Shown here piece by piece: positions 7,070 to 58,657 of a stretch of 64,000 nucleotides of DNA. The notes under the pieces were generated by a model. The model was given only the letters and a program-made list of their open reading frames with translations. It had not been told where the DNA came from and did no database searches. Position numbers and translations under genes: made by a program. Each line of letters opens with the position of its first letter. Position 1 is the first letter of the stretch. Source of the DNA: Patescibacteria group bacterium (GTDB lineage Bacteria > Patescibacteriota > SICC01). The stretch is from positions 268,280 through 332,279 of the forward strand of contig JBBDXB010000006.1 in the NCBI GenBank assembly GCA_040902515.1, given 5' to 3'.

Positions 7070-7095
7070 TTCCGGCTTCAACCACTTATTGATGC

Positions 7096-7124
7096 TTGAC
7101 ATTTTGCCTCAATAAAGGTATAAT
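7096..7124 (+). promoter_or_regulatory. Consensus sigma-70-type promoter (TTGACA-17-TATAAT)
   Basis: TTGACA at 7096-7101, 17-nt spacer, TATAAT at 7119-7124, in an AT-rich intergenic patch upstream of the ATG at 7147. Confidence 0.6.
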
Positions 7125-7146
7125 TCTTCAATTAATCCTTTTAGGC

Positions 7147-42662: not shown

Positions 42663-42803
42663 GACGACCCTGTTTGCACCGAAAGCGCCCTCAAAGCATC
42701 GCCATTTGTACGCAACATAACTGAGCCCAGTGACGTTGCGCTTTCTTGGTGCAAACAGGGTTATTCATCCCGGGTTGTTGGCAGTGTGGCGTAGAATGGC
42801 ACC

Positions 42804-45075: not shown

Positions 45076-46118
45076 TCGAAGTGCATCCAGTCCTTGGTGG
45101 TGCGGAAGTTGCCGCCCCAGAAGAAACCGTATTTCTCGAAGATCCGCACCCAGGAGTCGGGAATGTCATGCGTATCGCATTTACAGTACGGGTTCGTGTC
45201 CGGATTGATGTCGACCGCCGCGCCGTACATGTGGAAATAATACAGCGGGTCTCCCGGCCGGGGATGGTAGCCGCCGATCGACCGGACCTTGTAGTTATCC
45301 AGTCCCTTTTGCTTTATTTCCCGCTCGACGGCCTCCAGGCACGGCACGACCTTGCGGTGTGCCTGGATGTCGTGGCCGAAGAACGAGACCGGCTGCTTGG
45401 CCGCCGCACTGTTCGCCTTTCCGAAGACCTTTTCCCGATCTCCCACGTTGGATCCGGGAAGTCCGAAGGCGATCCCGTTCGCCGTACACTCGCCGGCCGG
45501 GCCGGAATCTTCCGGACAATCCTCCCCGGCATCGGCCGGCGCGCCCGTGTTGACGGCGCTGCGGACGATTTGTGCCAACCGCTCGTATCCGGCGGCATTG
45601 GGGTGGATGTTGTCCGCCATATCAATCCCCTTACCCTTGGTCTGGATGACCGTGACGTCTCCGAGGCCCCTGATCGCCTGGTTCTCGTTCGCGTAGTCAC
45701 CCCGGGAGAAGATCTCGACCCAGTATATCGCCGCCGAGTCGTTCTTGTTCCTGATCTTATTCACCATCGTCTGGGCGTCCGCGGCAAAGCCGTTCGACTT
45801 ATTAGTTCCGAGCTCGACGACTACGGCGTCGGCATTCTCTACTTTCGGCGTGTCGCTTTCGAGCGCGCTGATTCCGGCCGGGAGCGCGCGGCCCGTTTCG
45901 GCATTGACCGTATAGCGGTCGCCCAGCTTGTCCCGGATGCCCGTGCCGATGGAGTCGCCGACGAAGTAAACGGGCCCGTCCCCGGGTGCGGCTGCTTCGG
46001 CGACGCAGTCATCATCACCACCGCCGCCGAGCAGCGCCGCTGCCAATGCGATCGGCGCGATGATGACCATCAGCAGCAGGCCGATGATGAGAAGTCCGAT
46101 GCCGAGGTATTTTCCCAT
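45054..46118 (-). CDS. Bifunctional cell-wall hydrolase: SGNH/GDSL hydrolase domain plus peptidase M15 (VanY-like D,D-carboxypeptidase) domain
   Basis: N-terminal TM, then VYFVGDSIGTG / ELGTNKSNG / DNIHPNAAG (SGNH blocks I, III, V). C-terminal YHPRPGDPLYYFHMYGAAVDI...DWMHFEWHG (M15 zinc motifs). Confidence 0.55.
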   Translation of the reverse strand: MGKYLGIGLLIIGLLLMVIIAPIALAAALLGGGGDDDCVAEAAAPGDGPVYFVGDSIGTGIRDKLGDRYTVNAETGRALPAGISALESDTPKVENADAVVVELGTNKSNGFAADAQTMVNKIRNKNDSAAIYWVEIFSRGDYANENQAIRGLGDVTVIQTKGKGIDMADNIHPNAAGYERLAQIVRSAVNTGAPADAGEDCPEDSGPAGECTANGIAFGLPGSNVGDREKVFGKANSAAAKQPVSFFGHDIQAHRKVVPCLEAVEREIKQKGLDNYKVRSIGGYHPRPGDPLYYFHMYGAAVDINPDTNPYCKCDTHDIPDSWVRIFEKYGFFWGGNFRTTKDWMHFEWHGEAP

Positions 46119-47297: not shown

Positions 47298-47941
47298 GTG
47301 CCTCCCTCGACATCCTTCGCGAATCGCTGTGCCTGCAAGGTCACCGCGTATACGTACCAGTCTGCATTGTTGTAGGAATAGATGCCATTCCGCCAGTTAC
47401 CGGGAGCGCCCCCGCCCAGGAGGTGATGGGCGGCTGCACAGGCGCCGTTCTCAACCGAATAGGCGGGCCAGGTGCGGGAGCCGGCTTCCCGGCACGGGGG
47501 ATTGTGGTTGATGGCGAAGCCCTGCCAGCTTGGTTCAAGGAACTGCCAGGGGCCGCCCGCACCGGCAAAGTTTACGACCGAATAGCCGGTGTCGGCGAAA
47601 CCGGTCTCGATGCTATGGATCCCCGCCAGGATCGACGGTCCGCAGCCTCCGAGCTTCTTCTTTTCGGAAATCTCGTTATAGATCGGAATGAACTTGGCGG
47701 GAGGTTTGTCGGTCTTGCCGGCGACGTACGCCTTCCCGGCTTCGGCACCGGCGGATGCGTCGCTGAAGATCTTATCGTAATCACATCCGCCCGAAAGGGA
47801 ACCACCGGCGTCTTCACCCCCACCCCCACCGGTCCCGGCCAGGGCCGCGGCCACCAGCAGGATCGGAATCATCGCGAGGCTTGCCAGGAACACCCCGCCT
47901 CCGAGGATCAGCCACGGCGCACCGCTCGACTTCTTGGCCAC
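47294..47941 (-). CDS. Lytic transglycosylase-like (SLT/VirB1-like) membrane-anchored protein
   Basis: N-terminal TM, Gly-rich linker, ...ILAGIHSIETGF... (catalytic E-S/T) and AGAGGPWQF (GLMQ-like). Lies immediately downstream of VirB4. Confidence 0.5.
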   Translation of the reverse strand: MAKKSSGAPWLILGGGVFLASLAMIPILLVAAALAGTGGGGGEDAGGSLSGGCDYDKIFSDASAGAEAGKAYVAGKTDKPPAKFIPIYNEISEKKKLGGCGPSILAGIHSIETGFADTGYSVVNFAGAGGPWQFLEPSWQGFAINHNPPCREAGSRTWPAYSVENGACAAAHHLLGGGAPGNWRNGIYSYNNADWYVYAVTLQAQRFAKDVEGGT

Positions 47942-49872
47942 TACTCCTCCTTCAGCCGGAGGCCGGCGTTCTCCAGCTCCTCAAGCTGCTGCGGGTTGGT
48001 GGTGATGATCTGGTCCTCGGCGTAGCTTGCTAGCACCTTGATCGCCACGTGGTTGAGCCCGGCGAAGAACAGCCCCTCGCCGACCTCGCTCTCCAGCAAG
48101 AGGAGCTTCTCGCCCTCGGTAAGGTTGAACGTGTCGGCCACCAGGTCGATCGATGCCGGCGATTGCCGGAGCAACAGTTGCAGCGAACTGTTCGTCACGA
48201 TCGCCTTGCCGTAGCTGGAATTCAAGAAGTCCTCCACGTCCTGCGTCACCGTGGTCAGGCCGAGATAGTATTTTCGAGCCCGCTTCGCCAGCGAAAACAG
48301 GAACTTCGCCGAGTCTTCGTGCCCCATCATCTGCCAGGCTTCGTCGATTACCATCAGTCGGCGCTTCCGGTCCTTCCGGATCAAATTCCAGATGTGGTTC
48401 AGGATCATGTACATCGCGATCGGCCGGAGCGAATCTTCCAGGTCGCGGATCGAGAAGGTCAGGAAGTGGTTGTCCAGCGAGACGTTGCTCGGCTTGTTGA
48501 GGAGTCCGGAGAACGAACCGGTCACGTACTTCTGGAGCTTCGACGCGACTTCCTCGGCGCCCTGCATGTTGGTCAGCACCTCATGGAAGTCCTGGAGCGT
48601 CGGCGGTGCGTTCTTGTGCGATGCTACGTCGGTGGTGATGTCGCGGAGCGCGTACGTTTCCATCAGGGCCCGGTCGACCAGCGCGTCCTGTTCGGGAGTC
48701 AGCGAACCGCACATCAGGGCGATCAGCCCGTGCAGGTTGGTGATCGCCGAGCGCAGGATCGCCTCGCCGTCCGTTTCGTCGCCGAGCGCCGGTGGCAGGT
48801 CGAACGGGTTGATGTTGTGCTCCGAGTTGAGCGACACGTTCACGAACCGTCCACCGACCGCGGCAGTCAGCGCCTGGTACTCGTTCTCCGGGTCGATCAC
48901 GATCGTCTCGGTGCCGAACATCAGCGAGCGGAGCAGTTCCAGCTTCACGGCGTAACTCTTACCACCACCGGACTTGGCGAAGATCACCATGTTGGCGTTC
49001 TCGAGCGTGAACCGGTCGAAGAGGATCAGCCCGTTGTTGTGGCGGTTCACACCGAAGAGGATGCCGTCGGACTGGGTAAGCTCCGAGCTCGTGAACGGGA
49101 ACGTCGTCGACAGCGAATCCGTGTCCATGTTCCGGGTGACGCGGAGTTCGTCGGTCCCGGTCGGGAGCGAGCTGTTGAAGCCCTGCTCCATCTGCAGGTT
49201 CGCATACTTGGTGAAGACGAGCTTCCCGTTGAGGGTCGCTTCGAGCTGCTTGGTGAGCCGGTCCAGCTCGTCCTTCGACTTCGCGTAGAGCGTGAAGTAG
49301 AGGGCGTACTGGAAGAACTTCTCCTCGCCGCGCTGCAGGCGGTCGCGGAGCTCCTCGGCGTCGCCGAGCGCGGTCTCCAGCTCCGGATCGCGAACCTTGC
49401 CCTTTTCCTTGTTGAGCATCCAGGCCGATTCCATCTGACCGACCTTCTTGCGGAGGTTCTGCATGATCTCCTTGGTCTCGACCGGGTAGATGAACATCGA
49501 GATGTCCATCGTGATGTCGTAGTTGATGACCGGATTCAGCCAGTTCGTGTTGATGTACCGCGGGTAGGTGAAGACGAAGAGCGTCCGCACGAAGTAGTCT
49601 TCGAGCTTGAGGTAGTTGAAAGTGATCTCCATCGCCGCCGGAGCGATCAGGTCCTTGATCGTGGAGATGCCTTCCTCGTAGACGCGCTTGGCCTCCTCGA
49701 ACTGCTGGGCCTCGACCTGTTGCTGGGAGCGCTCCGCCTGGGAAGCCTTCCCCTGCTTCCAGGCGAAGAACCGCTCCAGGAAGCTCGGCTTGTCGGAGCC
49801 GACGGAACGGCCGACGGCTTCGGCCGGTACGTCCGGCACGGGGGGTGCCTGCTGGTCCGGCTGGTCAGCCAT
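47941..49872 (-). CDS. virB4: Type IV secretion system ATPase VirB4/TrbE/PrgJ family
   Basis: N-terminal VirB4 domain (IKDLIAPAAMEITFNYLKLEDYFVRTLFVFTYPRYINTNWL), Walker A FAKSGGGKSY, Walker B MVIDEAW. The ATG at 49872 is preceded by SD GGAAGGAGG. The Arg-rich stretch upstream in the track ORF is not taken as coding. Confidence 0.9.
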   Translation of the reverse strand: MADQPDQQAPPVPDVPAEAVGRSVGSDKPSFLERFFAWKQGKASQAERSQQQVEAQQFEEAKRVYEEGISTIKDLIAPAAMEITFNYLKLEDYFVRTLFVFTYPRYINTNWLNPVINYDITMDISMFIYPVETKEIMQNLRKKVGQMESAWMLNKEKGKVRDPELETALGDAEELRDRLQRGEEKFFQYALYFTLYAKSKDELDRLTKQLEATLNGKLVFTKYANLQMEQGFNSSLPTGTDELRVTRNMDTDSLSTTFPFTSSELTQSDGILFGVNRHNNGLILFDRFTLENANMVIFAKSGGGKSYAVKLELLRSLMFGTETIVIDPENEYQALTAAVGGRFVNVSLNSEHNINPFDLPPALGDETDGEAILRSAITNLHGLIALMCGSLTPEQDALVDRALMETYALRDITTDVASHKNAPPTLQDFHEVLTNMQGAEEVASKLQKYVTGSFSGLLNKPSNVSLDNHFLTFSIRDLEDSLRPIAMYMILNHIWNLIRKDRKRRLMVIDEAWQMMGHEDSAKFLFSLAKRARKYYLGLTTVTQDVEDFLNSSYGKAIVTNSSLQLLLRQSPASIDLVADTFNLTEGEKLLLLESEVGEGLFFAGLNHVAIKVLASYAEDQIITTNPQQLEELENAGLRLKEE

Positions 49873-50755
49873 TGCTGCCTCCTTCCTGGTCAGTCGCCTG
49901 CTGGTCCGGCTGTTGCGGCTGCGCCGGTTGCGGTGGCGCGGACTGGGGCTGCGGTGCATAAGCCGCCGATTCTGTCTGGGGTTCCATGGTGGCCGGACTC
50001 GGCGCGGGTGCCTGTCCGGTCGGTCCGGCAGGCGCTTGTCCGTGGTTCGGCCCCCGGACCGTCGCTGCCGTCAGCTCGTCCACGTTGACCAGGCGCTGCT
50101 TGGTGGCGGTCTGCGGGTTGTAGATGCTGTAGAACAGCTCCACCAGTTCCTCGGAGTTGAGCTGGGCGGCACGGACGCCGAGCGCACCTAGGCCGGACGC
50201 CACCGACTCGGTCCGCTGGAGCAGCTGGCCGCGGTAGTTCTGGAACGTTGCCTCGCGCTTGGCGACCTCCTTGGCCGGCTGGGGATTGGTGGCGAACAGC
50301 TTCCCGAGTCCCTTGGCCGGTTCGGTCGCCGGCGGGAAGTACGGCACGATCACGTAGAACCGCTTGTCCATGATGTTCGTGACCGAGATCAGCCGGGAGA
50401 TGAACTCGCCGTACTCGATGGTCTGGAGCTTCACCAGCTCGATCGGCTGGTCGTCGGCCCGCTTCTTCAGCTTGTCGAGATAGTAGTCGAGGTCGAGCCG
50501 CCGCGAGTGGATCAGGATTTGTATCGGGAAGTTCAGCGAGTTCAGGAACCGCTGGTAGGCGTAGATCATCGCGTCCTGTTCCTCGCCGGACTTGAGCGCG
50601 AAGTTAACGGCGCTGGTCATCAGCACCGCGCGGAGCGAGCCGTCCTTCAGGACGATCACGCCGTCCTTGATCTCGGAGATATTGAGGTACGCCTGCGTGG
50701 AAGCCGCCTCCTGCTTCCGCTGCTGCTGTTGCTGGGTCTTGTCTTGCTTCGCCAT
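49865..50755 (-). CDS. T4SS-associated hypothetical protein with Gln/Pro/Ala-rich C-terminal tail
   Basis: 296 aa from ATG 50755 (SD AAGGAG 7 nt upstream). Conserved-looking N-terminal domain (IKDGVIVLKDGSLRAVLMTSAVNF...FPIQILIHSRRLD), then a low-complexity tail QAPAGPTGQAPAPSP...PQPAQPQQPDQQ. Overlaps the virB4 start by 8 nt. Confidence 0.5.
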   Translation of the reverse strand: MAKQDKTQQQQQRKQEAASTQAYLNISEIKDGVIVLKDGSLRAVLMTSAVNFALKSGEEQDAMIYAYQRFLNSLNFPIQILIHSRRLDLDYYLDKLKKRADDQPIELVKLQTIEYGEFISRLISVTNIMDKRFYVIVPYFPPATEPAKGLGKLFATNPQPAKEVAKREATFQNYRGQLLQRTESVASGLGALGVRAAQLNSEELVELFYSIYNPQTATKQRLVNVDELTAATVRGPNHGQAPAGPTGQAPAPSPATMEPQTESAAYAPQPQSAPPQPAQPQQPDQQATDQEGGSNG

Positions 50756-50756
50756 G

Positions 50757-51422
50757 TCAGGCTCCTTGTCCCGTCGGTTTGGGGGCAACGTCGCGCTGCG
50801 GTGATCGCCGCGCCTGCCTTGCTATCTTCTGGCTCAGTACCTGGCCCAGGTCGGCGCTGGCCCGGTCGGACCCGGCCCCCTCTTCCTCGCGCTCCAGGAT
50901 GTCCTGGGGTTCCTCGGTCTGGGCCATGAAGATGTTGAGCTTGGGCTTGGCTTCCACGTCGCTGGTGATCCGGCCGGTCGTCTCCGCCGCATCCACCTCG
51001 CTCCAGCCACGCGCGTCCACGATGTGGGACAGGCGTGCGAGCTTGGAGCGGACCTCTTCCTCCGACGGCTCTTCCTGCACGACCCTCGGCGGTGCCTGCC
51101 GATCTTCCAGCTTGATCTCGCCGAGACTGGGCATCCGCTTCCAGGCACGTCGCGACGGACGCACGTAGAACGAGAAGAACGAGCTGATGAACTTGGCGAA
51201 CGGCTGGTCGTTCGGACGGATGAAGACGAATGCCCCCGCGATGATCCAGGTGAACGCGGTGACCATAAAGAACGCGGGCGGCGAGGCGGTGTAGAACGCG
51301 CTGAACGACACGAACGTCACCAGTCCGGCTGCCAGCAGGTAGAAGAACTGCTTGAGCGTGAACGGCCCGAGGATCTTGTCCTCAAGCTCGACGTTCTGCG
51401 GGATTTTGTAGCTGCTGGCCAT
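50757..51422 (-). CDS. PrgI/VirB3-like family conjugation/T4SS membrane protein
   Basis: MASSYKIPQNVELEDKILGPFTLKQFFYLLAAGLVTF followed by a second TM, the hallmark N-terminus of the PrgI family. Acidic C-terminal extension. Confidence 0.6.
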   Translation of the reverse strand: MASSYKIPQNVELEDKILGPFTLKQFFYLLAAGLVTFVSFSAFYTASPPAFFMVTAFTWIIAGAFVFIRPNDQPFAKFISSFFSFYVRPSRRAWKRMPSLGEIKLEDRQAPPRVVQEEPSEEEVRSKLARLSHIVDARGWSEVDAAETTGRITSDVEAKPKLNIFMAQTEEPQDILEREEEGAGSDRASADLGQVLSQKIARQARRSPQRDVAPKPTGQGA

Positions 51423-51510: not shown

Positions 51511-53871
51511 TCATAGCGTGGGGTGGTCGAACGGAAGGCCGAGCGAGCGGCGGCCGTCCTGGTACTTCTTGACGACCGCGCTTTCGGTGCCCTGCTGCTT
51601 GGCTACCTCGGCCTGGTACTCGGCACCGGTCTTGAAGTCGGCACGGTTCACGCTGGAGCTGAGCAGTCCCTGCCGGGCCACTTCGTACGCCAACCGCTGC
51701 TTTTGGGCGGAGTGGAACTTGTTCCGGGCGGTGGCATCGGAGGCTTCGGACAACCGCACGCCGTCCAGGTTGCGCATGACGCGTAGGTAGCGGCCGTCGC
51801 CGCTCAGTGCACCCTGCAGCACGTTCGTATCCATGCCACGCAGCGTATCGGAGTCCATCAGCTGGGTCTTGATGTCCAGGGAACCGAAGTTGATGCGGTC
51901 GCCGCTGCGCTCGTACGAGGAGATCAGTGGATCGCCCTTGTGCAGCTGCTGGTAACCGGTCCAGGCGAGGTTCTTTGGCCCTTGGAGCATGTGTTCGTCG
52001 ACGTACTCGGCCTGGGCCAGCTCCTTGAAGGCTGCCGCCGAGTTGATGCGGTTCTGGGCCAGCGCGTGCTCGGTGGCGTCCATTTCCATGCGTTGGTTCG
52101 GATCGCCGCTCGAGTGGTTGGCGAAGTATCTCCCGCCCTCCTGGACCGTTCCGTACTTGTAGCCGTGGGCGATCCGGTTCTTGGCAGAGATCGACAGCGG
52201 GATCATTTCTTTCTGTGCCTGGTTCACCATGGACTCAAGCGCTGCGACTTGCTGGCCCTGCGACATGCCAGTGAGCGTGCGGGTGAGTCCCGTGCCGCTG
52301 GGACCGAGCTGGTTGAACGCCTCAGCCATCGCGATCCGGTTGTGAGCGGCTGACAGCATGGCGTCTTGCTCCTGGCTGTCCTTGCGTTGCTTGAAGAAGG
52401 CCTTGGTCTCGCGGCCGCGCTGACCGATCGTCTTGCCGCCGGGGCCCGGAAGCATGCCGACGGCGCCCAGGCCGCCCTTGCCGCCGATGCCCCCGGCACG
52501 TTTGCCCTGGCCGGCGGCCATGCTGGCGACCCGCCCGCCGAGCGCCAGCGGCACGGCCACCGCGGCGATCACGATGCCGGCGAAGAAGAGTGCCTGGATG
52601 ATCGCGGTCGCGCCTGACCGGCCCGTGTCCGCACCGGTCAGGATGGCCTCAAGCATCAGCGACCCGACGAATAACAGCAGGAAGGCGACCGGCGCCATGT
52701 AGACCCAGCGGATGTACGTCTGGAGCAGGTTCCTCGATTCACCGCGGGTGAACGGAAGCACCAGGAACAGGAACAGCGCGGGTGAGAGCACGGCCAGGAC
52801 CCAGATCACTACCACGCGGACGATGAAGAAGAACAGGAGGACCAGGAGGGCAACGAGGATGATGATCGACGCCAACAGGAGGACGACGCCCTCTCCGAAA
52901 CCGTCAGCCAGTCCGCTCGCGAACCCGCTTCCTACGCCCGACCAGGACTGGATCATGTCCTTGGCGTGTTCCGCGAACGGCTGGCTGAGGACGAAAGCCG
53001 TGTTGGCGAGGATGTTCGCGAACAGGAAGCTGAAGTTGACGGCCAATATGGAGAAGACGAGAAGCGGCAGGAGCTGGCGGACGTTATACTTCTGTGGCTC
53101 GATCCGGATGATGGACGAAAGCGCCAGGCCGCTCAGAACGAGGATGAAGATCAGGTTCACGACGTCACGGACGACCTTCCATCCCTCCGCCAGGCCCCGG
53201 TTCTCGTTGAAGTTACCGACGTCCATGGCCCACAGGAGGGCGTCGGTGACGCTGCCGGAAAGACTCGAGACGACCTCCGCCATCTTGGCCAGCGCCTTGG
53301 CGAACGGGTCATCCGAAGCCCGGTCGAGCAAGCTCGTCTGCTCCACGTCGGTCGCGGCGCCCCCTTCTTCCGCCCATGCGATGCCCTCCGCATTGGACCG
53401 GTCCTTGAGGAACTCGCCGATCGGTGTCTTATGGAAGTCGATCAGGTTACAGACCTTGTTGGCAGGCTCCAGGCCCTCGCCGGGCGGGCCGTCGACTACG
53501 TAACCGAAGCCGCCGCCGTTACCCGGGTCGTTCCGGAACAGGAACGTAAGCCCGCCGCTCCCCGTACCGTCCGGCTTGAAGAAGAAGTCCCAGCTGTCGA
53601 GGCCGCCGCCGCGGTCGTGGTGCTTCAGGGCATTGAACGTGAACGTGATATCGCCGACCGTGACGCCCAGGCTTTCGGGGCGGACCTTGTCGGGATCATC
53701 GGGGAAACTGCGCGGTTGGAAGCGGTAGTCCTCGGTCTTGCCGTCAGGGCAGGCAAGGGAATCGGCAGGAGCGGCACTAACCGGCTCCGCCGCCAGGCCC
53801 AACGAGAGCATGACGAACAGGCCTCCGAGGGCCGCCGTGCTGAGCCGTCTGATTCGTTCAGGAAACCGCAT
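51511..53871 (-). CDS. VirB6/TrbL-like polytopic T4SS membrane protein, paralog 1 (signal peptide, ~210-aa extracellular N-domain, 6-7 TM core, Gly-rich segment, ~300-aa cytoplasmic C-domain)
   Basis: Signal peptide LGLAAEPVSA. TM core VVNLIFILVLSGLALSSIIRIEPQKYNVRQLLPLLVFSILAVNFSF... shared with the next gene. GKRAGGIGGKGG linker. Confidence 0.45.
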   Translation of the reverse strand: MRFPERIRRLSTAALGGLFVMLSLGLAAEPVSAAPADSLACPDGKTEDYRFQPRSFPDDPDKVRPESLGVTVGDITFTFNALKHHDRGGGLDSWDFFFKPDGTGSGGLTFLFRNDPGNGGGFGYVVDGPPGEGLEPANKVCNLIDFHKTPIGEFLKDRSNAEGIAWAEEGGAATDVEQTSLLDRASDDPFAKALAKMAEVVSSLSGSVTDALLWAMDVGNFNENRGLAEGWKVVRDVVNLIFILVLSGLALSSIIRIEPQKYNVRQLLPLLVFSILAVNFSFLFANILANTAFVLSQPFAEHAKDMIQSWSGVGSGFASGLADGFGEGVVLLLASIIILVALLVLLFFFIVRVVVIWVLAVLSPALFLFLVLPFTRGESRNLLQTYIRWVYMAPVAFLLLFVGSLMLEAILTGADTGRSGATAIIQALFFAGIVIAAVAVPLALGGRVASMAAGQGKRAGGIGGKGGLGAVGMLPGPGGKTIGQRGRETKAFFKQRKDSQEQDAMLSAAHNRIAMAEAFNQLGPSGTGLTRTLTGMSQGQQVAALESMVNQAQKEMIPLSISAKNRIAHGYKYGTVQEGGRYFANHSSGDPNQRMEMDATEHALAQNRINSAAAFKELAQAEYVDEHMLQGPKNLAWTGYQQLHKGDPLISSYERSGDRINFGSLDIKTQLMDSDTLRGMDTNVLQGALSGDGRYLRVMRNLDGVRLSEASDATARNKFHSAQKQRLAYEVARQGLLSSSVNRADFKTGAEYQAEVAKQQGTESAVVKKYQDGRRSLGLPFDHPTL

Positions 53872-53985
53872 GTGCCGTATTTGGGAAAGACTTCATTGTA
53901 CCGCTCTGGCCTCTTAGGGGAAGCTATGCCGCGTTTCGTGTCCGGCGTGTGTCCGGCGCCTGCAGGCACGGTTTGCTTGCTACCC

Positions 53986-54017
53986 AAAAAGCGCTCAATC
54001 ATGGCATAATTGAGCGC
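53986..54017 (-). terminator. Intrinsic terminator between the two VirB6-like genes
   Basis: Perfect 9-bp inverted repeat GCGCTCAAT-N9-ATTGAGCGC at 53991-54017, followed on the minus strand by TTTTT. Confidence 0.5.
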
Positions 54018-54036
54018 CACGGTCAAGAGGGCCGAA

Positions 54037-56634
54037 TCAGTGGATGGTGGCGTTGGGGTTGTTATGGGAATCCAGAACTGACCGGTTGGCGTTCGCGTCA
54101 TGGAATCCGCCGGCGCCCGCGAACCGTCGCATGAGTTCACGCTGCTGATCCTGCGGCATGGAATTCCGATGGCCTTGGGTCACGGCGTAGGCAGCACGAG
54201 TCTTGTCCAGGCTCCCAAGCGATTCCGCTGCCGTGCGGTGGTAATCCGATGTTTCCCTTCCTTCGGCGTAATCGACCGCGGCTTGCAGGTAGGTACTGTG
54301 GTCCCACTTCTTCATGTCGTCGGGAGAAGCGAACTGCACCTTGGCATCGGCCGTTCCCTGGCGGTACTCACCATTACGGTCGACGGCTGCCTGGGCCGGG
54401 TCGGATACGTTAAGCTGCTGTAGCCCGCTTCCTGCATAGGTCTCCGTGAGGTCGTGGGTCGCCAGGCCGGCCTGGGAAAGTTCCGCGAACGCCGCTTCGG
54501 AGGCCTGGCGCTTGCCCGCGAAGTCCGCCTCGTCCGCGGTGAGCCTGCCGAGAGAGTTGTTTCCGCTATCGAAGACCTCGTCGCCCGCTTTCAAACTAGG
54601 ATTACCATGCGCCCAGGCGATACGGCGTTTGCCAGCTGGGGTAACAGTGGCCATCTCCTTCTGGTACCGTCCGATGGCCCGCTGCTGGGCGATGGTGCGT
54701 TGTCCCGGCGTGGCTCCCGTGAGCTTGCCGACACCCTTGCCTCGTCCGGTCTGCTCCTCAAGGTGGGCCATCGCAGCCTTTTGGCGCAAGTCGCCACGAG
54801 AGCCTTCCGCGTATGACTTCGGCTTCTTCAGGCCGAGACCGTAGCCGGTCGCCCGGGCCCGGGTAGCCAGGGATGTCCCGCCCGGACTGACCCGGCCGAC
54901 CGTCCCGGCAAGCGCGGCCCCGGCACCCTTTCCGCCGTACTTCCCGGCTTTCCCGGCACCTCTTCCGGCCGACTTGACGCCTCGGTATGCTTGCCCGACG
55001 ACCTGGCCCCCGAGTTGGAGCGGGATCATCACCGCCGCCACCGCGGCCAGCAGGAAGAAGGCGACCTTCAGGAGAAAGTCGGGGCCGTTGATGTCTTCAT
55101 TCCCCCGTCCGGCGGTACCGATCAGTTCGGCCGCGATAAACAGCAGGACGAAAGCGATCGGTGCGGCGAAGATCCACTTCAGCGCGTTCTGCCACCACTG
55201 GCCAGCCAGCCCCCTCGTCAGCGGGAGGACCATAAAGAGGAACACGAACGGCGACAGCGCGGCCAGGAACCAGATGATCAGCATGCGCAGGACGAAGAAG
55301 GCGAAGAGGATGATGAACCCGAACAGGATCATCAGCACCAGCAGTAGCGCGATGATGAATTGACCGATCCCCTCGCTCGGATCGATGATGCTTCCGGTCG
55401 CCGGCGGATTGGCCAGCAGGTCGAACGCCTTGCTTGCGAACGGCTGGGAAATGATGTAGGCGACGTTAGTAAGAATCTGTACCAGGATGAAGCTGAAGTT
55501 CACCGCGATGACTCCAAAGATCAGGCGGGGAAGGAGTGCCCGTATGCCGTACCGGTCAGTGTCGATGCGGAGGATGTTGGAGAAGGCGATCGTCACCATG
55601 ACCAATATGAAGATGATGTTGACGAAGTCGCGCATGGTCTTCCAGGCATTGGTGAGTCCGCGGTTGTCGGTGAGGGTGCCGATATTGATCACGTTCAGAA
55701 GGGCGCTCTTGATCCAGTCGAGGACCGCACTGATAGCTTCCTTGATCGATTCCAACGCCTTTTCAATGGCGTCACTGAAGGCGCCGGTCGTCTTGTGACA
55801 GGCGTTGGCAGTGAGGTTGTACTCCTTGATTTTCTTTTCGGTCTCATCGCTTTCCGGATCATTTGGGATGTCTTCGGTTTGGTTGGGGAACTGACCCCGG
55901 TCGCCGTTCGGCACTTCCGCGATGATCGTGTCTTCGTTTTCGCGCACCGTTCCCTGACAGGTACCGGCGTACACGAACCGATCTATGTCCCCGGCATTGA
56001 GCTCATTGCCCTTCCGGGACCAGAGGATGATCGCCAGGTTCCGGTTGTACTCATTACGGAAGATCCAGACCACGCCCTTGGAGTGGCCCACACCGGTAAT
56101 GTCGCTGGTGCGCGTCATCACTTCCGACAGTACGAAGCGCACGGGAATGCCCCCGAACTTTAACTGGGTGTCACCGACTTCATGATCCTTGTTGCTCCAT
56201 ACGAGGAACGGGTTTCCTTCGAACTTGAGGAATTCCCGGGAAGTGTTGCTCCGTGCCCGGAAGTCGCCGCGGTACACATAGTTAAGGTTTCGGTCCTTGA
56301 AGGTGTTTCCTTCGATGCCGAACTCCCGCATGGCTTCAGGGACGGAATTTATTTGCTGTAATTCGGTTTTTTGTTCCGCGCTACGCCGATTGTCGATTTC
56401 TTCTATCGGCACCAACGGGGGGATGTCCGGATCAGACTGAGGAGGATCCCCGATCGGTGCCGCGGGAGCGCCGGGTTCGAATGGATTCTGGTCGCTGAAT
56501 TGCGCCTGGGCTTGTCCGGCGGCGAAAGGTGCGACCAAGGCGGGTACCAGCAACGCGCCCAGCACCATGCTGCTCAGCGTGCGGTGCAGCCAACGACGGA
56601 TTCGAGGGCGGGTGAATGTCTTGGTCGCTTTCAT
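54037..56634 (-). CDS. VirB6/TrbL-like polytopic T4SS membrane protein, paralog 2 (~300-aa extracellular N-domain)
   Basis: Signal peptide ...APFAAGQAQA. TM core DNRGLTNAWKTMRDFVNIIFILVMVTIAFSNILRIDTDRYGIRALLPRLIFGVIAVNFSF... paralogous to 51511..53871. Gly-rich AGRGAGKAGKYGGKGAG linker. Confidence 0.45.
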   Translation of the reverse strand: MKATKTFTRPRIRRWLHRTLSSMVLGALLVPALVAPFAAGQAQAQFSDQNPFEPGAPAAPIGDPPQSDPDIPPLVPIEEIDNRRSAEQKTELQQINSVPEAMREFGIEGNTFKDRNLNYVYRGDFRARSNTSREFLKFEGNPFLVWSNKDHEVGDTQLKFGGIPVRFVLSEVMTRTSDITGVGHSKGVVWIFRNEYNRNLAIILWSRKGNELNAGDIDRFVYAGTCQGTVRENEDTIIAEVPNGDRGQFPNQTEDIPNDPESDETEKKIKEYNLTANACHKTTGAFSDAIEKALESIKEAISAVLDWIKSALLNVINIGTLTDNRGLTNAWKTMRDFVNIIFILVMVTIAFSNILRIDTDRYGIRALLPRLIFGVIAVNFSFILVQILTNVAYIISQPFASKAFDLLANPPATGSIIDPSEGIGQFIIALLLVLMILFGFIILFAFFVLRMLIIWFLAALSPFVFLFMVLPLTRGLAGQWWQNALKWIFAAPIAFVLLFIAAELIGTAGRGNEDINGPDFLLKVAFFLLAAVAAVMIPLQLGGQVVGQAYRGVKSAGRGAGKAGKYGGKGAGAALAGTVGRVSPGGTSLATRARATGYGLGLKKPKSYAEGSRGDLRQKAAMAHLEEQTGRGKGVGKLTGATPGQRTIAQQRAIGRYQKEMATVTPAGKRRIAWAHGNPSLKAGDEVFDSGNNSLGRLTADEADFAGKRQASEAAFAELSQAGLATHDLTETYAGSGLQQLNVSDPAQAAVDRNGEYRQGTADAKVQFASPDDMKKWDHSTYLQAAVDYAEGRETSDYHRTAAESLGSLDKTRAAYAVTQGHRNSMPQDQQRELMRRFAGAGGFHDANANRSVLDSHNNPNATIH

Positions 56635-56653: not shown

Positions 56654-56682
56654 ATCATAGCAAAATCAGTGGGAAATGTCAA
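56654..56682 (-). promoter_or_regulatory. Near-consensus promoter (minus strand TTGACA-17-TATGAT) for VirB6-like paralog 2
   Basis: Minus-strand TTGACA (plus tgtcaa at 56677-56682), 17-nt spacer, TATGAT (plus atcata at 56654-56659). The -35 context TTGACATTTC also recurs upstream of the PrgI-like gene (51485-51490). Confidence 0.55.
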
Positions 56683-56741
56683 CCGTGCCACCTGGCGGTG
56701 GCCGAGGTGCAACCGGAGCCTTCGCGGAACCAGCCCATAAG

Positions 56742-56769
56742 AAAAGAGGCCCGCGCGCGGGCCTCTTTT
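56742..56769. terminator. Bidirectional intrinsic terminator after pilin gene 1
   Basis: aaaa-GAGGCCCGCGCGCGGGCCTC-tttt at 56742-56769. On the minus strand the hairpin is followed by TTTTCTT. Confidence 0.7.
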
Positions 56770-56785: not shown

Positions 56786-57160
56786 TTACTCGGTAACGCG
56801 GAAGCCGCGTTCGACGCCCAGGTACTGCTGGATCAGTCGCGTCAGTACGAACGCGATGAAGATGATGATCAAGCCAAGGATGGCATAGAGGATGGTCTTC
56901 CGGGCTGCGTCGACCTGTTCGGGGTTGCCCGTGGAAACCACGTAGCGGAAACCGCCGATAATCAGGAAGAGCACCGCGACGGCGCCGGCGAAGAGCAGCA
57001 GCGCTTCGATGACGCTGGCGAGCACTTCGCCCAGCGAAGTACCGGACACCGGGTTGTCGATGTTTGGCCGGCGTACCTGCGCGAACGCGGTCTGTACCAT
57101 GCCGAGCGAAAGCGCGAAGCCGGAACCGGTTCGGATGAGAAGTTGTTTCATGCGTATCAC
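56786..57160 (-). CDS. VirB2/TrbC-like pilin, paralog 1
   Basis: Signal peptide ending AFAQ, then hydrophobic helix - GGFRYVVSTGNPEQVDAARKTILYAILG - second hydrophobic helix. 124 aa. Confidence 0.6.
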   Translation of the reverse strand: MIRMKQLLIRTGSGFALSLGMVQTAFAQVRRPNIDNPVSGTSLGEVLASVIEALLLFAGAVAVLFLIIGGFRYVVSTGNPEQVDAARKTILYAILGLIIIFIAFVLTRLIQQYLGVERGFRVTE

Positions 57161-57180
57161 CTCCTTTCTATGTTTGTCGT

Positions 57181-57822
57181 TTACCCACGTGTCGCTTGGA
57201 TAGTCGTCACCACGATAACATAGGAAAGGAACACCACCGCGAGCCCGATGACCGAGTACAGGATGGTCTTTCGGGCCGCCTCGACCTGGTCCTGGTTGCC
57301 CTGCGAGGTGACGTAGCGGTAGCCGCCGAGGATCAGGAACAGTACCGCCGCGGCGCCGCCGAACGCGAGGAATATCTCGAACAGGCGGGCAAGGATGCCG
57401 CTCGCACTGCCGGGTGCTCCCTGGATCGCACCGCCGATGCCGGGGGCGCGGGACACCCTGGTCTGCAAGCTCGCGTCCAAGGTCCGTTGGAGCAACACTA
57501 CGATCGCATACGAACTGACCGTCAGGATGAACCCGGTGATCGACCAGGTCAGCCCCTGCTTGGCCTTTTCCACCTTCTCCGGGTTGCCTGCCGAGAGGAT
57601 GTACTGGTAGCCGTTCACGACGATGAACAGGACGGCGACAGCGGCCGCGAACAGCATCCCGAACCGGATGAACTGCACCAGGATCCGGACGAGGTCGTCG
57701 AGTCCGACGCTGCGCGGCGTCTGCGGGATGTTGAAGAATCCGCCCTGGGCGCTGGCCGTTTCCGGAAGAAGCACGGCAGCGGCGACGGCCGAAAGCAGCG
57801 TGACCGGCAGGTACCGCTTCAT
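57181..57822 (-). CDS. VirB2/TrbC-like pilin, paralog 2 (internally duplicated, two pilin modules)
   Basis: Signal peptide ETASA, then module A (NGYQYILSAGNPEKVEKAKQGLTW) and module B (GGYRYVTSQGNQDQVEAARKTILYSVIG), each between hydrophobic helices. Confidence 0.55.
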   Translation of the reverse strand: MKRYLPVTLLSAVAAAVLLPETASAQGGFFNIPQTPRSVGLDDLVRILVQFIRFGMLFAAAVAVLFIVVNGYQYILSAGNPEKVEKAKQGLTWSITGFILTVSSYAIVVLLQRTLDASLQTRVSRAPGIGGAIQGAPGSASGILARLFEIFLAFGGAAAVLFLILGGYRYVTSQGNQDQVEAARKTILYSVIGLAVVFLSYVIVVTTIQATRG

Positions 57823-58187
57823 ATCCGGAGTCCCGAGTTAAAGCCGAGCGCCCGTGAGATCATGAAGATCACGCCGACCGAGACGATCGCGACGATCAGC
57901 CCATAGACGGCGTACAGCAGACTCTTCTTCGCACGATCCACCAGCTCGGGGTTGCCCTGCGCGACCATGTACCGGTAGCCGGCGATGGCTACGTAGAGGG
58001 CGGCGACGGTGGGGATGAAGAAGATCAGCGCGTTGAAGATGGCGCTGATCGGCTCCCCGAGGTTGTCAAAGCCGGTCTGGCTCTGGATGCGTCGTGGCCG
58101 GTTGCCCGGGTCCGGCAGCTGCGCGGCCGCCTGAGCGGGAACCGTCAGGAGCAGCGCCAGTGCCGAATAGCCGAACCGCCGCATCAT
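57819..58187 (-). CDS. VirB2/TrbC-like pilin, paralog 3
   Basis: Signal peptide ...VPAQAAAQ. AGYRYMVAQGNPELVDRAKKSLLYAVYG between two hydrophobic helices. Start set at the internal Met (MMRRFGY). Confidence 0.55.
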   Translation of the reverse strand: MMRRFGYSALALLLTVPAQAAAQLPDPGNRPRRIQSQTGFDNLGEPISAIFNALIFFIPTVAALYVAIAGYRYMVAQGNPELVDRAKKSLLYAVYGLIVAIVSVGVIFMISRALGFNSGLRI

Positions 58188-58657
58188 CCGCCCGGCCTCG
58201 TGAAGTCGATGTCGCCGCAGCCGCGTTCTCCCGGCCGGCACGGGTCGGTGGTCCGTGGATTGATCGTACTGAGGATCAGCGCCGCCAGGATCAGCAGGGC
58301 TAGGCCGATCAGGGTCTTCTCCACGATGTCCTTGGCGTTCGAGATCTTTTCCGGATCGCCGTAGCTTCCCATGTAGGTGTAGCCCGCGTAGATCAACATG
58401 ATGATCGCGAGGAGCCCCCCGATGAATGCGAACCAGATGTAGGCCGCGTTGATGTACTGCACGACGGACGTCCGCTCGACCTCCTGGCCGCTGACCGGGT
58501 CGATGTTATCGCCGTCCCGGTCGCGGGCTTGTGCCAGCGCCGACCCGTCGGCGGTCGTCCCGGCGGACGGAGCCGCTGATGCGGACGGAGCGGTCGTCAC
58601 TGCAAGTCCGAGCGCGAGCCCGACGGCGAAAATGAGTTGGACGGTTCGTGTAATCAT
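58184..58657 (-). CDS. VirB2/TrbC-like pilin, paralog 4, with Cys-containing C-terminal extension
   Basis: Signal peptide ...PSASA. AGYTYMGSYGDPEKISNAKDIVEKTLIG between hydrophobic helices. C-terminal DPCRPGERGCGDIDF. Confidence 0.5.
   Translation of the reverse strand: MITRTVQLIFAVGLALGLAVTTAPSASAAPSAGTTADGSALAQARDRDGDNIDPVSGQEVERTSVVQYINAAYIWFAFIGGLLAIIMLIYAGYTYMGSYGDPEKISNAKDIVEKTLIGLALLILAALILSTINPRTTDPCRPGERGCGDIDFTRPGG

What the first reader, a model, noticed from the sequence alone, without database searches (positions are those of the whole stretch)
51511..56634. Tandem paralogous giant VirB6-like proteins with divergent extracellular N-domains, separated by a terminator and promoter
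The two proteins (786 and 865 aa) share a clearly homologous 6-7 TM core (…NRGL[AT]-x-[GA]WK-x-[VM]RD[VF]VN[LI]IFILV…LLP-x-L[VI]F[SG][IV][LI]AVNFSF…), a Gly-rich linker (GKGG… / GKYGGKGAG) and a long cytoplasmic C-domain. Their signal-peptide-led N-terminal domains, about 210 and 300 aa, are unrelated in sequence. A perfect 9-bp IR terminator (53991-54017) sits between them. This looks like a duplicated channel subunit with swapped surface-exposed domains, possibly for receptor or target specificity.
Basis: seen in the sequence. Interest (0 to 1): 0.6.

Follow-up and report, generated by a model that had tools for sequence, protein, structure and literature searches.

The report
Two extended VirB6 subunits, Saccharibacterial T4SS
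[quoted passage not shown] The system and the adjacent virB6 pair are already in the literature, but here the soluble domains on both sides of the membrane turn out to be exchanged between relatives.

Summary
ORFs 51511-53871 (786 aa, "A") and 54037-56634 (865 aa, "B"), both on the minus strand, are paralogues: 33% identity over about 580 aa, E 1e-78. An intrinsic-terminator hairpin and a sigma70-like promoter lie between them.

Both are extended VirB6/TrbL-family subunits of the chromosomal T4SS of a Saccharimonadia (Patescibacteria) MAG. The locus lies beside dnaN/recF and contains four VirB2-like pilin genes, PrgI/VirB3, TrsD and VirB4.
- The link to VirB6 rests on sub-threshold Pfam TrbL hits, on 30 of 41 family members matching TrbL, and on R388 TrwI/VirB6 as the most credible PDB fold match for both AF2 models.
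- The duplication is old. There are two clean orthologue clades, and both copies stay in tandem in all 7 distinct relatives examined.

- There are most likely five membrane passes plus a signal peptide, giving N-out and C-in.
- The two N-domains are probably very diverged homologues, not unrelated.

New points:
- The terminator and promoter overlap in one roughly 45-nt element that is conserved in 9 loci.
- Among orthologues, the N-domain plus outer loop 2, and separately the C-domain, are replaced cassette-like around a conserved membrane core.

The Patescibacteria T4SS, two adjacent virB6 genes in TM7x and tandem extended VirB6 paralogues in Rickettsiales are all published. This is therefore a new member of a known kind, of moderate interest.

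The parts
54037..56634 (-). Paralogue B (865 aa), an extended VirB6-family protein. Layout: signal peptide aa 1-44; Pro-rich/helical extension about aa 45-115; beta-rich N-domain about aa 116-284 with clade-invariant Cys226 and Cys279; amphipathic helix plus five-helix membrane core aa 285-547; Gly/Lys-rich disordered linker aa 548-589; alpha-helical C-domain aa 590-865.
   Evidence: ORF. Pfam TrbL 17.8 bits, E 0.003, aa 411-537. AF2 model pLDDT 78.2. Most credible Foldseek PDB hit is TrwI/VirB6 7o3v_F, prob 1.00, TMt 0.47. Orthologues carry names such as 'type IV secretion system protein' and Pfam PF04610/PF19590. Invariant Cys pair.
51511..53871 (-). Paralogue A (786 aa), an extended VirB6-family protein. 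Layout: signal peptide aa 1-33; beta-rich N-domain aa 34-188; amphipathic helix plus five-helix membrane core aa 189-447; Gly/Lys/Arg-rich linker aa 448-480; alpha-helical C-domain aa 481-786.
   Evidence: ORF. Pfam TrbL 19.1 bits, E 0.0012, aa 303-437. AF2 model pLDDT 82.6, with the C-domain above 95. Top Foldseek PDB hits are TrwI/VirB6 7o3v_J, 8rt9_F and 8rtd_L, prob 0.96-0.99, TMt 0.42-0.46. Identical to NCBI MAG protein WD603_00295, Patescibacteria group bacterium.
53985..54030 (-). Overlapping terminator/promoter element between B and A. The -35 TTGACC is at 54026-54021, followed by a 17-nt spacer and the -10 CATGAT at 54003-53998. The hairpin spans 54018-53990, and its 3' arm contains the -10. 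The T-run is at 53990-53986.
   Evidence: Conserved in 9 distinct loci, with CTTGAC, the -10 and TTTTT invariant. On the stem, 87% of cells are paired, against 32-44% in the slid controls. Two compensatory pairs were found. There is no Rfam match.
53885..53900 (-). Conserved motif TACAAT-GAAGTCTTTC, 23 nt upstream of the start codon of A. It may be a proximal -10 box for a short-leader transcript.
   Evidence: Present once per locus, at the same place, in 9 loci. It occurs once in the window without mismatch. A TACAAT also lies 9 nt upstream of the ATG of ORF 32842-34281.
56654..56769 (-). Terminator after the pilin genes (hairpin AAAAGAGGCCCGC/GCGGGCCTCTTTT, 56769-56742), followed by the promoter of B: TTGACA-17-TATGAT at 56682-56654, preceded by TG. 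B is therefore a monocistronic unit.
   Evidence: The same terminator-promoter arrangement is seen in L003/L010, L005 and L001.
56786..58657 (-). Array of four VirB2-like pilin genes (Pfam T4SS_pilin PF18895). The 213-aa product has two matched stretches.
50757..51422 (-). PrgI/VirB3-like protein, directly downstream of A.
   Evidence: Pfam PrgI, 42.4 bits, above the cutoff.
47941..50788 (-). TrsD/TraC-like protein (49865-50788), resembling the VirB4 N-terminal region, plus the VirB4-type ATPase. The VirB4 ORF runs 47941-49959, and its likely start is the ATG at 49872.
   Evidence: Pfam P-loop_TraG 86.6 bits and AAA_10. NCBIfam TrsD and VirB4 partial matches. The same 8-nt overlap is seen in relatives.

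Best explanation
A and B are two ancient, non-redundant paralogues of the VirB6 (TrbL) inner-membrane subunit. They belong to the chromosomal, oriC-proximal type IV secretion system of a Saccharimonadia (Patescibacteria) bacterium.

Domain layout of each protein:
- A Sec signal peptide exports a beta-rich N-domain.
- An amphipathic helix leads into a five-pass VirB6-fold core, giving N-out and C-in.
- A basic, Gly-rich disordered linker tethers an alpha-helical C-domain of about 300 aa in the cytoplasm.

Inferred mechanism, by analogy with the R388 TrwI/VirB6 pentamer, which forms the membrane base of the stalk and the pilin-assembly platform:
- The cores form the channel and pilus platform above VirB4/VirB3.
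- The N-domains and outer loop 2 face the wall, the pilins or the host.
- The C-domains face VirB4/TrsD or substrates, in a system where neither this locus nor the published descriptions show a clear coupling protein.

Transcription is split. B is monocistronic, with a terminator and promoter on each side. A heads the unit A-PrgI-TrsD-VirB4. The copies can therefore be dosed or timed independently.

Shown here: paralogy, family and fold link, conserved tandem synteny, conserved regulatory element, mosaic domains.
Inferred: topology, oligomeric role, function of the domains.
For: Paralogy: E 1e-78.

Family link:
- Pfam TrbL in both proteins, on equivalent core helices.
- 30 of 41 family members hit TrbL, best E 2.8e-7.
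- Orthologues carry PF04610/PF19590, and some are named 'type IV secretion system protein'.

Fold:
- TrwI/VirB6 of R388 is the highest-probability PDB match for both independent AF2 models.
- TrbL-like phage proteins were hit in BFVD, E 4e-5.

Context:
- Four T4SS_pilin genes, PrgI, TrsD-like and VirB4.
- DnaN and RecF at 41571-43907.
- The same synteny is found in L001, L003 and L005, up to DnaA.
- Record titles name Ca. Saccharibacteria / Saccharimonadia.

Ancient duplication:
- Core identity is 47-86% within each clade and about 40% between clades.
- Both full-length genes are in tandem in WIN, L001, L003, L005, L008, L011 and L012.

Topology:
- AF2 helices.
- Mean net charge alternates over 41 sequences: N-domain -13, loop 1 +0.4, loop 2 -1.9, loop 3 +2.5, loop 4 -1.4, linker +5.4.
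- An invariant Cys pair sits in the B N-domain.
- N-domain and loop 2 diverge together in WIN vs L007 and in B of WIN vs L003.

Separate transcription.

Literature:
- The Patescibacteria T4SS lies near dnaA and has VirB6 homologues and VirB2 arrays (PMC12102498).
- The T4SS cluster SEML1_0006-0019 is essential in S. epibionticum (PMC10633639).
- TM7x has two adjacent predicted virB6 genes, TM7x_00055 and TM7x_00060, with opposite expression changes (bioRxiv 10.1101/2022.03.25.485537).
Against: - Neither window protein reaches Pfam's TrbL gathering score: 19.1 and 17.8 bits against 25.9.
- NCBIfam gives nothing.
- Sequence and profile searches of the PDB do not find TrwI.
- The Foldseek E-values to TrwI are only about 0.1, with TM-scores of 0.4-0.47.
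- Hydropathy alone would allow six passes, which would put the C-domain outside. Topology was not measured.
- Nothing here shows that the two proteins sit in one machine, that the promoters fire, or that the hairpin terminates.
- Fast, cassette-like turnover of a supposedly cytoplasmic C-domain is not what a simple structural docking role predicts.
Confidence: 0.75

Rival explanations
1. Host-specificity reading. The exported N-domains are adhesin- or receptor-binding modules. They decide which host cell or surface structure the T4SS engages, and the two paralogues offer two specificities.
For: - The N-domains are exported, shown by the signal peptides and by the invariant Cys pair in B.
- The extracellular parts are the most divergent parts between close relatives. 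In A of WIN vs L007 the N-domain is 29% identical and loop 2 dips, while the C-domain is 92%. In B of WIN vs L003 the N-domain is 42% against 82-85% elsewhere.
- Neighbouring genes are 72-93% identical in the same genome pair.
Against: - No adhesin, lectin or Ig-like family or fold was found.
- The predicted cytoplasmic C-domain varies just as much, so variability alone does not indicate host contact.
- The N-domains could instead contact the equally variable pilins or the cell's own wall.
- Saccharibacterial host adhesion has been attributed to type IV pili and other adhesins (PMC10633639, PMC11665869).
Confidence: 0.25
2. Stage-specific alternative machines. A and B do not co-assemble. Each forms homo-oligomers used at different life-cycle stages, such as swarmer or first contact versus stable attachment. 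This would give two functional states of one T4SS, for example pilus growth versus transport.
For: - B is insulated by terminators and has its own promoter, and A heads the downstream unit. The arrangement is conserved.
- In TM7x one virB6 rises at initial encounter and the other in stable symbiosis (bioRxiv 10.1101/2022.03.25.485537).
- The same question is open for the Rickettsiales RvhB6 paralogues (PMC8035066).
Against: - It is not shown that TM7x_00055 and TM7x_00060 correspond to clades A and B.
- There are no expression data for this lineage.
- Separate promoters can equally serve to set the stoichiometry of a hetero-oligomer.
Confidence: 0.3
3. The variable C-domain is cargo rather than machinery. 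It would be cleaved at the disordered Gly-rich linker and delivered or displayed, like the variable C-terminal modules of polymorphic toxin or effector proteins.
For: - C-domain replacement shows a sharp breakpoint at the linker. In WIN vs L003, nucleotide identity is 80-88% up to about aa 450, then 28-53%.
- P0028 and P0029 have cores 90% identical but C-domains that do not align.
- The C-domain has no relative outside this narrow family: 17 representatives among 1.84e9 proteins.
- Cleavage of a VirB6 paralogue in Ehrlichia is reported by Bao et al. 2009. That paper is cited in PMC12857230 and PMC8035066 but was not read here.
Against: - No toxin, enzyme or defence family was hit.
- No immunity-like small gene follows either paralogue. 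PrgI follows A, and A follows B.
- Most C-domains are one homologous family shared by both paralogues. That fits a conserved structural partner better than a set of toxins.
- The topology places the C-domain in the producer's cytoplasm.
Confidence: 0.1
4. One copy is a redundant or decaying duplicate with no separate role.
For: Duplicates often decay, and soluble-domain identity is low within both clades.
Against: - Both copies are full-length in all 7 distinct genomes, even where protein identity falls to 36-43%.
- 24 columns are invariant across both clades.
- The genomes are strongly reduced (about 0.7-0.8 Mb contigs), which argues against keeping dead weight.
Confidence: 0.03

Closest known systems
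VirB6 genes of the Patescibacteria/Saccharibacteria T4SS (TM7x_00055/TM7x_00060; the virB6 within the SEML1_0006-0019 cluster of Southlakia epibionticum)
   Same: Same lineage-level system. The T4SS is chromosomal and lies near dnaA/dnaN, with a VirB2-like pilin array, PrgI/VirB3, TrsD, VirB4 and VirB6. Two adjacent predicted virB6 genes are already noted in TM7x, and the cluster is essential for epibiotic growth (PMC12102498, PMC10633639, bioRxiv 10.1101/2022.03.25.485537, PMC7427843).
   Different: - Those papers do not analyse the pair.
- Clade assignment of the TM7x and S. epibionticum genes to A or B was not done here.
- This MAG belongs to a high-GC (about 62%) environmental branch.
- The domain architecture, the mosaicism and the intergenic element described here were not found in the passages read.
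Rickettsiales rvh T4SS RvhB6/VirB6 paralogues (4-5 tandem copies in Rickettsia, Ehrlichia and Wolbachia)
   Same: [quoted passage not shown] VirB2 is also duplicated and VirB5 is absent. The function of the duplication is unknown, and the same choice between hetero-oligomers and alternative complexes is discussed (PMC8035066, PMC12407924).
   Different: - Rickettsiales are diderm alphaproteobacteria with an MPF-T type system and an outer-membrane complex.
- The duplication is independent, and no sequence relation of the extensions was detected.
- There are two copies here, not four or five.
Canonical VirB6: A. tumefaciens VirB6 and R388 TrwI (PDB 7o3v, 8rt9, 8rtd)
   Same: Polytopic alpha-helical core. 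The best structural match is with TrwI over about 260-290 columns. The inferred N-out/C-in five-pass topology equals that reported for A. tumefaciens VirB6 (own knowledge of Jakubowski et al. 2004; 5-6 hydrophobic helices per PMC12857230).
   Different: - Canonical proteins are about 260-300 aa, without a signal-peptide-led N-domain or a 300-aa C-domain.
- TM-score is only 0.4-0.47 and sequence identity 13-17%.
- There is no VirB5 partner in this locus.
Extended VirB6-like proteins of monoderm conjugation systems (PrgH of pCF10, TcpH of pCW3, ConG of ICEBs1) and F-plasmid TraG
   Same: A VirB6-like membrane domain joined to large hydrophilic domains. The Patescibacteria VirB4 clusters with the monoderm MPF-FATA class (PMC12102498). 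'Extended VirB6' is a recognised category (PMC12857230).
   Different: - In the published survey only 12 of 480 Patescibacteria VirB6 homologues matched the PrgH profile (PMC12102498).
- No similarity of the N- or C-domains to these proteins was tested or found here.
- The comparison with TcpH, ConG and TraG rests on my own knowledge.

Membership tests
TrbL/VirB6 (Pfam PF04610) | The protein scores at or above the curated gathering threshold of the family profile. | tested here: not met
   A scores 19.1 bits (E 0.0012) and B 17.8 bits (E 0.003), against a cutoff of 25.9. At family level, 30 of 41 orthologues match at E <= 0.01, best 2.8e-7. Several orthologues carry precomputed PF04610/PF19590 hits. 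They are remote members, recognised through the family and not individually.
TrbL/VirB6 | Polytopic inner-membrane protein with 5 or more hydrophobic helices. | tested here: met
   Hydropathy segments. AF2 helices 225-255, 264-323, 325-371, 373-412 and 421-463 in A, with the equivalents in B.
TrbL/VirB6 | The core fold superposes on a solved VirB6 (TrwI of R388). | tested here: inconclusive
TrbL/VirB6 | Encoded in a T4SS gene cluster with VirB4 and other mating-pair-formation genes. | tested here: met
   The pilin genes, PrgI/VirB3, TrsD-like and VirB4 are adjacent on the same strand. The synteny is conserved.
TrbL/VirB6 | N-terminus outside and C-terminus in the cytoplasm. | tested here: inconclusive
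   Supported by the signal peptides, the alternating loop charge over 41 sequences and the +5.4 net charge of the linker. Also supported by the joint divergence of the N-domain and loop 2. This is a prediction only; a six-pass reading of the hydropathy is not excluded.
TrbL/VirB6 | Physically part of the T4SS channel or stalk and required for transfer or pilus formation. | not testable with these tools
   Needs genetics, biochemistry or cryo-ET. The only indirect support is that the T4SS cluster is essential in S. epibionticum (PMC10633639).
Patescibacteria-type T4SS (Quinonero-Coronel et al. 2025) | Chromosomal cluster with VirB4, TrsD, PrgI/VirB3, VirB6 and a VirB2-like pilin array, often near dnaA/dnaN, without a relaxase. 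| tested here: met
   All components were found. DnaN and RecF lie 4-6 kb from the cluster, and DnaA is in the relatives. No relaxase or coupling-protein family appeared among the ORFs scanned, but the whole window was not scanned for them.
Polymorphic toxin / effector with variable C-terminal module | Variable C-terminal domain with toxin or enzyme fold, followed by a cognate immunity gene. | tested here: not met
   C-domains are variable and cassette-like. No toxin or defence family was hit, and the downstream genes are conserved T4SS genes.

The most novel reading that the evidence does not exclude
The two VirB6 paralogues are the variable, specificity-determining parts of an otherwise conserved and essential T4SS. 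Naturally competent Saccharibacteria exchange N-domain/loop-2 cassettes (outer face) and C-domain cassettes (inner face) by recombination, using the conserved membrane core and the Gly-rich linker as joints. In this way they retune which host or pilin partner is engaged outside and which substrate or ATPase partner is engaged inside, in a system without a coupling protein. The two insulated promoters would let the cell switch or balance the two versions during its life cycle.
Probability: 0.25. Interest if true: 0.7.

Novelty: new member of a known kind. Interest (0 to 1): 0.42.

Why it matters
The T4SS of Saccharibacteria is essential for their epibiotic life, yet its role is described as completely unknown (PMC11665869). 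The locus is otherwise conserved: between the window and L003, VirB4 is 93% identical and PrgI 79%. Against that background, the two VirB6 copies are the variable parts. Their outward-facing segments and their C-domains are replaced between close relatives.

This points experiments at specific domains:
- N-domain or C-domain swaps, and depletion of a single paralogue, in the cultivable relatives.
- Correlation of cassette type with host.

The pair also offers a second, independent case, alongside Rickettsiales, for asking why host-dependent bacteria multiply and extend VirB6. The compact, conserved terminator/promoter overlap is a small but clear example of transcriptional insulation in a reduced genome.

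Tried and rejected
Searches that found nothing useful:
- Sequence searches of the PDB with each protein, with the family profile and with each N-domain profile gave nothing meaningful.
- NCBIfam, PHROGs and PADLOC gave no family for A, B or two orthologues with other C-domain types.
- Rfam found nothing in the intergenic region.
- Foldseek against the PDB gave no credible match for the N- or C-domains. The nuclear-receptor and CRM1 hits have low probability and rmsd of about 20-28 A, so I rejected them.
- A third word-indexed homology search, using the 41-sequence profile, added no new relatives. TM7x and S. epibionticum proteins could therefore not be placed in clade A or B.

Libraries that were unavailable:
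- The third fold search went to the viral library. It only re-found TrbL-like phage proteins.

Readings considered and dropped:
- Six-pass topology from hydropathy. It breaks the positive-inside pattern that five passes satisfy.
- The inverted repeat as a repressor operator only. Two compensatory changes, a differently built hairpin in L011 and the invariant T-run favour an RNA terminator. An operator role is not excluded.
- The ATG inside TACAATG as the start of a conserved 12-aa leader peptide. L005 and L011 have ATA at that position.
- Recent local duplication. The two orthologue clades rule it out.
Full report
**1. What is in the sequence**

Two ORFs lie head to tail on the minus strand:
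- B, 54037-56634, 865 aa.
- A, 51511-53871, 786 aa.

BLASTP aligns A 185-744 with B 285-852 at 33% identity, E 1e-78. The first 184 and 284 residues show no significant pairwise similarity. The 165-nt spacer contains the reported 9-bp perfect inverted repeat at 54017-54009 / 53999-53991. It extends to a stem of 12-13 pairs (-16.7 kcal/mol) and is followed directly by TTTTT.

**2. Organism and context**

A is identical to a protein of an NCBI 'Patescibacteria group bacterium' MAG. Related loci come from Candidatus Saccharibacteria / Saccharimonadia MAGs.

The genes on the same strand, in order of transcription, are:
- a solute-binding protein;
- four VirB2-like pilin genes (Pfam T4SS_pilin);
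- B, then A;
- PrgI/VirB3;
- a TrsD/TraC-like protein;
- a VirB4-type ATPase.

A cell-wall hydrolase-like gene lies further downstream. DnaN and RecF are at 41571-43907.

The same order, extending to DciA-RecF-DnaN-DnaA, occurs on long contigs of relatives, one of them 681 kb. This is therefore the chromosomal, oriC-proximal T4SS already described for Patescibacteria (PMC12102498). It is essential in Southlakia epibionticum (PMC10633639). Reviews call it the first T4SS required for survival of its bearer and describe its role as unknown (PMC12857230, PMC11665869).

**3. Are the proteins VirB6?**

- Each protein gives a sub-threshold Pfam TrbL hit on equivalent helices: 19.1 and 17.8 bits against a cutoff of 25.9.
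- Across the 41 homologues collected, 30 match TrbL at E <= 0.01, best 2.8e-7.
- Several B orthologues are named 'type IV secretion system protein' and carry PF04610/PF19590.
- AF2 models built on a 41-sequence alignment are good: pLDDT 82.6 and 78.2.
- For both models, the only high-probability PDB matches are the TrwI/VirB6 chains of the R388 T4SS. These have prob 0.96-1.00 and TM-score 0.42-0.47 normalised to the target, over 258-290 columns. The E-values are weak, at about 0.1.
- The viral structure library returned TrbL-like phage proteins, best E 4e-5.
- Sequence searches of the PDB do not reach TrwI.

Together with the gene context, this makes A and B remote members of the VirB6 family of the 'extended' type (PMC12857230).

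**4. Topology**

Hydropathy gives a signal peptide plus six core segments. AF2, however, predicts the 47-residue hydrophobic stretch (A 325-371) as one helix.

With five passes, the mean net charge over 41 sequences alternates as the positive-inside rule expects:

| Segment | Mean net charge |
|---|---|
| N-domain | -13 |
| Loop 1 | +0.4 |
| Loop 2 | -1.9 |
| Loop 3 | +2.5 |
| Loop 4 | -1.4 |
| Linker | +5.4 |

. A six-pass model would violate the rule three times.

Two further observations agree with N-out:
- Two Cys residues (226 and 279) are invariant in the B-clade N-domain.
- The N-domain and loop 2 diverge together between close relatives.

This remains a prediction.

**5. Age of the duplication**

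On the membrane core, the homologues fall into two clean clades. Identity to A is 47-86% within its clade and about 40% to B, and the reverse holds for B. Both genes are full-length and in the order B-A in seven distinct genomes, even where protein identity drops to 36-43%.

The duplication is therefore old and both copies are kept, which argues for non-redundant roles. Two adjacent predicted virB6 genes with opposite expression changes are reported in TM7x (bioRxiv 10.1101/2022.03.25.485537). I could not test whether they correspond to A and B.

**6. Are the N-domains unrelated?**

There is no BLAST-level similarity, even across all clade members. Two lines of evidence nevertheless suggest common descent.

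- The two AF2 models show the same order of elements: a long strand, three further strands, a fifth strand followed by short helices and a last strand, and then the long amphipathic helix.
- Profile-profile comparison of the two orthologue sets, without signal peptides, aligns four strands in register. It gives P of 4-7e-4 and probability 25-36%. The score of 29.1 compares with 9.6 +/- 1.6 (maximum 15.0) for 150 column shuffles and 15.8 for the reversed profile.

I regard the N-domains as probably homologous and very diverged, at about 70% confidence. B has an additional, partly disordered extension of roughly 70-100 aa. Within each clade the N-domain is inherited, not imported.

No family or solved structure matches either N-domain.

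**7. Mosaic orthologues (new)**

Domain identities among orthologues are discordant:

| Pair | N-domain | Membrane core | C-domain |
|---|---|---|---|
| A vs P0003 (L003) | 70% | 85% | 25-30% |
| A vs P0002 (L007) | 29-31% | 75-76% | 92% |
| P0005 vs P0010 | 85% | 86% | 29% |
| B vs P0018 | 42% | 82-83% | 85-86% |
| P0028 vs P0029 | 77% | 90% | not alignable |

.

Clusters of N-types and C-types do not nest. A tree with unequal rates cannot produce that pattern.

Sliding windows on the DNA show sharp breakpoints.
- A of WIN vs L003: 71-88% nucleotide identity up to about aa 465, then 28-53%.
- A of WIN vs L007: about 38-59% over aa 16-180 and 53-60% in loop 2 (aa 286-315), but mostly 80-93% over the rest of the membrane core and the C-domain.
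- B of WIN vs L003: the same low N-domain and loop-2 dip.

Neighbouring T4SS genes of WIN and L003 are 58-93% identical.

Most C-domains belong to one homologous family shared by A and B. Seven B-clade proteins carry a second type that BLASTP cannot link to it. An exhaustive profile search with the window's C-domains found only 17 representatives among 1.84 billion, all C-terminal parts of such proteins or fragments. Averaged within clades, the N-domain (26-31%) and the C-domain (21-30%) are equally divergent, against 59-62% for the core.

The two VirB6 proteins are thus modular. The extracellular face and the C-domain have been replaced independently around a conserved core, with joints near the amphipathic helix and the Gly-rich linker.

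**8. Regulatory anatomy (extended)**

The hairpin and the promoter are not side by side. They form one element, roughly 54030-53985:
- -35 TTGACC at 54026-54021;
- a 17-nt spacer containing the 5' arm;
- -10 CATGAT at 54003-53998, inside the loop and 3' arm;
- the T-run.

The element is present in 9 distinct loci, with CTTGAC, the -10 core and TTTTT invariant.

The stem is paired in 87% of cells, against 32-44% in slid controls. It has two compensatory pairs, and 21 of 500 shuffles reach the observed score, so this is modest support. L011 builds a different hairpin at the same place.

Read-through from B would form the hairpin and stop. Initiation from the embedded promoter would start at about the T-run and escape it. 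Both steps are inferred.

A second conserved motif, TACAAT-GAAGTCTTTC at 53900-53885, precedes the start of A in 9 loci. It may be a proximal -10.

Upstream of B there is a strong terminator (56769-56742) and a near-consensus promoter, TTGACA-17-TATGAT, at 56682-56654. Both are also conserved. B is therefore an insulated single-gene unit, and A heads the unit that continues into PrgI-TrsD-VirB4.

**9. How it most likely works**

In R388, a VirB6 pentamer forms the membrane base of the stalk (PDB 7o3v/8rt9; its role in pilin assembly is from my own knowledge of Mace et al. 2022). By analogy, the A and B cores would form the channel and pilus platform above VirB4/VirB3. The exported N-domains and loop 2 would face the wall, the pilins or the host. 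The C-domains would face VirB4/TrsD or substrates.

The evidence does not decide whether A and B co-assemble or form alternative machines. The same question is open for the 4-5 tandem, extended RvhB6 paralogues of Rickettsiales (PMC8035066, PMC12407924). The equally variable C-domain shows that the explanation cannot be host contact alone.

**10. Novelty and verdict**

The system, its VirB6 homologues, the adjacent virB6 pair in TM7x and tandem extended VirB6 paralogues in another host-dependent lineage are all published. The finding as stated is a new member of a known kind.

The following did not appear in the passages I read:
- the two-clade history of the pair;
- the probable homology of the N-domains;
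- the cassette-like replacement of the outer-face and C-terminal modules;
- the conserved overlapping terminator/promoter element.

These raise the interest to moderate (0.42).

Noticed in passing
window 53985-54030 (-); L001 9848-9918, L003 9799-9869, L005 9915-9985, L006 785-855, L007 898-968, L008 4675-4745, L011 2838-2908, L012 5269-5339: The terminator hairpin and the sigma70-like promoter between B and A are one overlapping element, with the -10 inside the 3' arm of the stem. It is conserved in 9 loci whose proteins are only 38-97% identical. Two compensatory stem changes were found, and L011 forms an alternative hairpin.
   Followed up: yes
window 53885-53900 (-); one copy at the same place in L003-L008 and L010-L012: The conserved motif TACAAT[GA][GA]AnTCTTT lies 10-23 nt upstream of the start codon of A. 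It may be a proximal promoter giving a very short leader. A TACAAT also lies 9 nt before the ATG of ORF 32842-34281.
   Followed up: partly
window 56654-56769 (-); also L001, L003/L010, L005 upstream of B (in L001, upstream of the extra gene preceding B): A strong terminator after the last pilin gene is followed by a near-consensus promoter, TTGACA-17-TATGAT. This makes B an insulated monocistronic unit, and the arrangement is conserved.
   Followed up: partly
A 51511-53871 and B 54037-56634 compared with L003, L007 and proteins P0002-P0041: The orthologues are mosaics. N-domain types and C-domain types re-assort around a conserved membrane core, with sharp DNA breakpoints near aa 180-210 and at the Gly-rich linker (about aa 460). 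Neighbouring T4SS genes are far more conserved.
   Followed up: yes
A aa 286-315 (window about 52927-53016) and B aa 391-420 (window about 55375-55464): The short loop between membrane helices 2 and 3 diverges together with the N-domain between close relatives, while the flanking helices stay at 80-90% identity. This is as expected if both lie on the outer face.
   Followed up: partly
proteins P0025, P0028, P0032-P0035, P0039 (B clade): A second C-domain type shows no BLASTP-detectable similarity to the common C-domain. P0028 and P0029 have cores 90% identical but different C-domain types.
   Followed up: partly
window 47941-50788 (-): The VirB4 function is split. A 307-aa TrsD/TraC-like protein resembling the VirB4 N-terminal region precedes the ATPase. 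If the ATPase starts at the ATG at 49872, the two ORFs overlap by 8 nt, as in the relatives.
   Followed up: partly
window 57181-57822 (-): One of the four pilin genes encodes a 213-aa protein with two T4SS_pilin matches, that is, a tandem pilin fusion.
   Followed up: no
L001 5897-7249, L002 and L009 at the same position: One relative carries an extra 450-aa gene without any Pfam family between the pilin array and the B orthologue. It overlaps the start of B by 4 nt.
   Followed up: no
window 45054-46118 (-): A 354-aa protein with GDSL-lipase-like and Peptidase_M15_4 (D-Ala-D-Ala carboxypeptidase) parts lies downstream of the T4SS genes. It may be the wall-remodelling (VirB1-like) component. 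Relatives have SLT or beta-lactamase-like genes at this position.
   Followed up: no
window 7095-7125 (+): The promoter-like site CTTGACA-N17-TATAAT carries the same CTCAAT in its spacer as the promoter of A.
   Followed up: no
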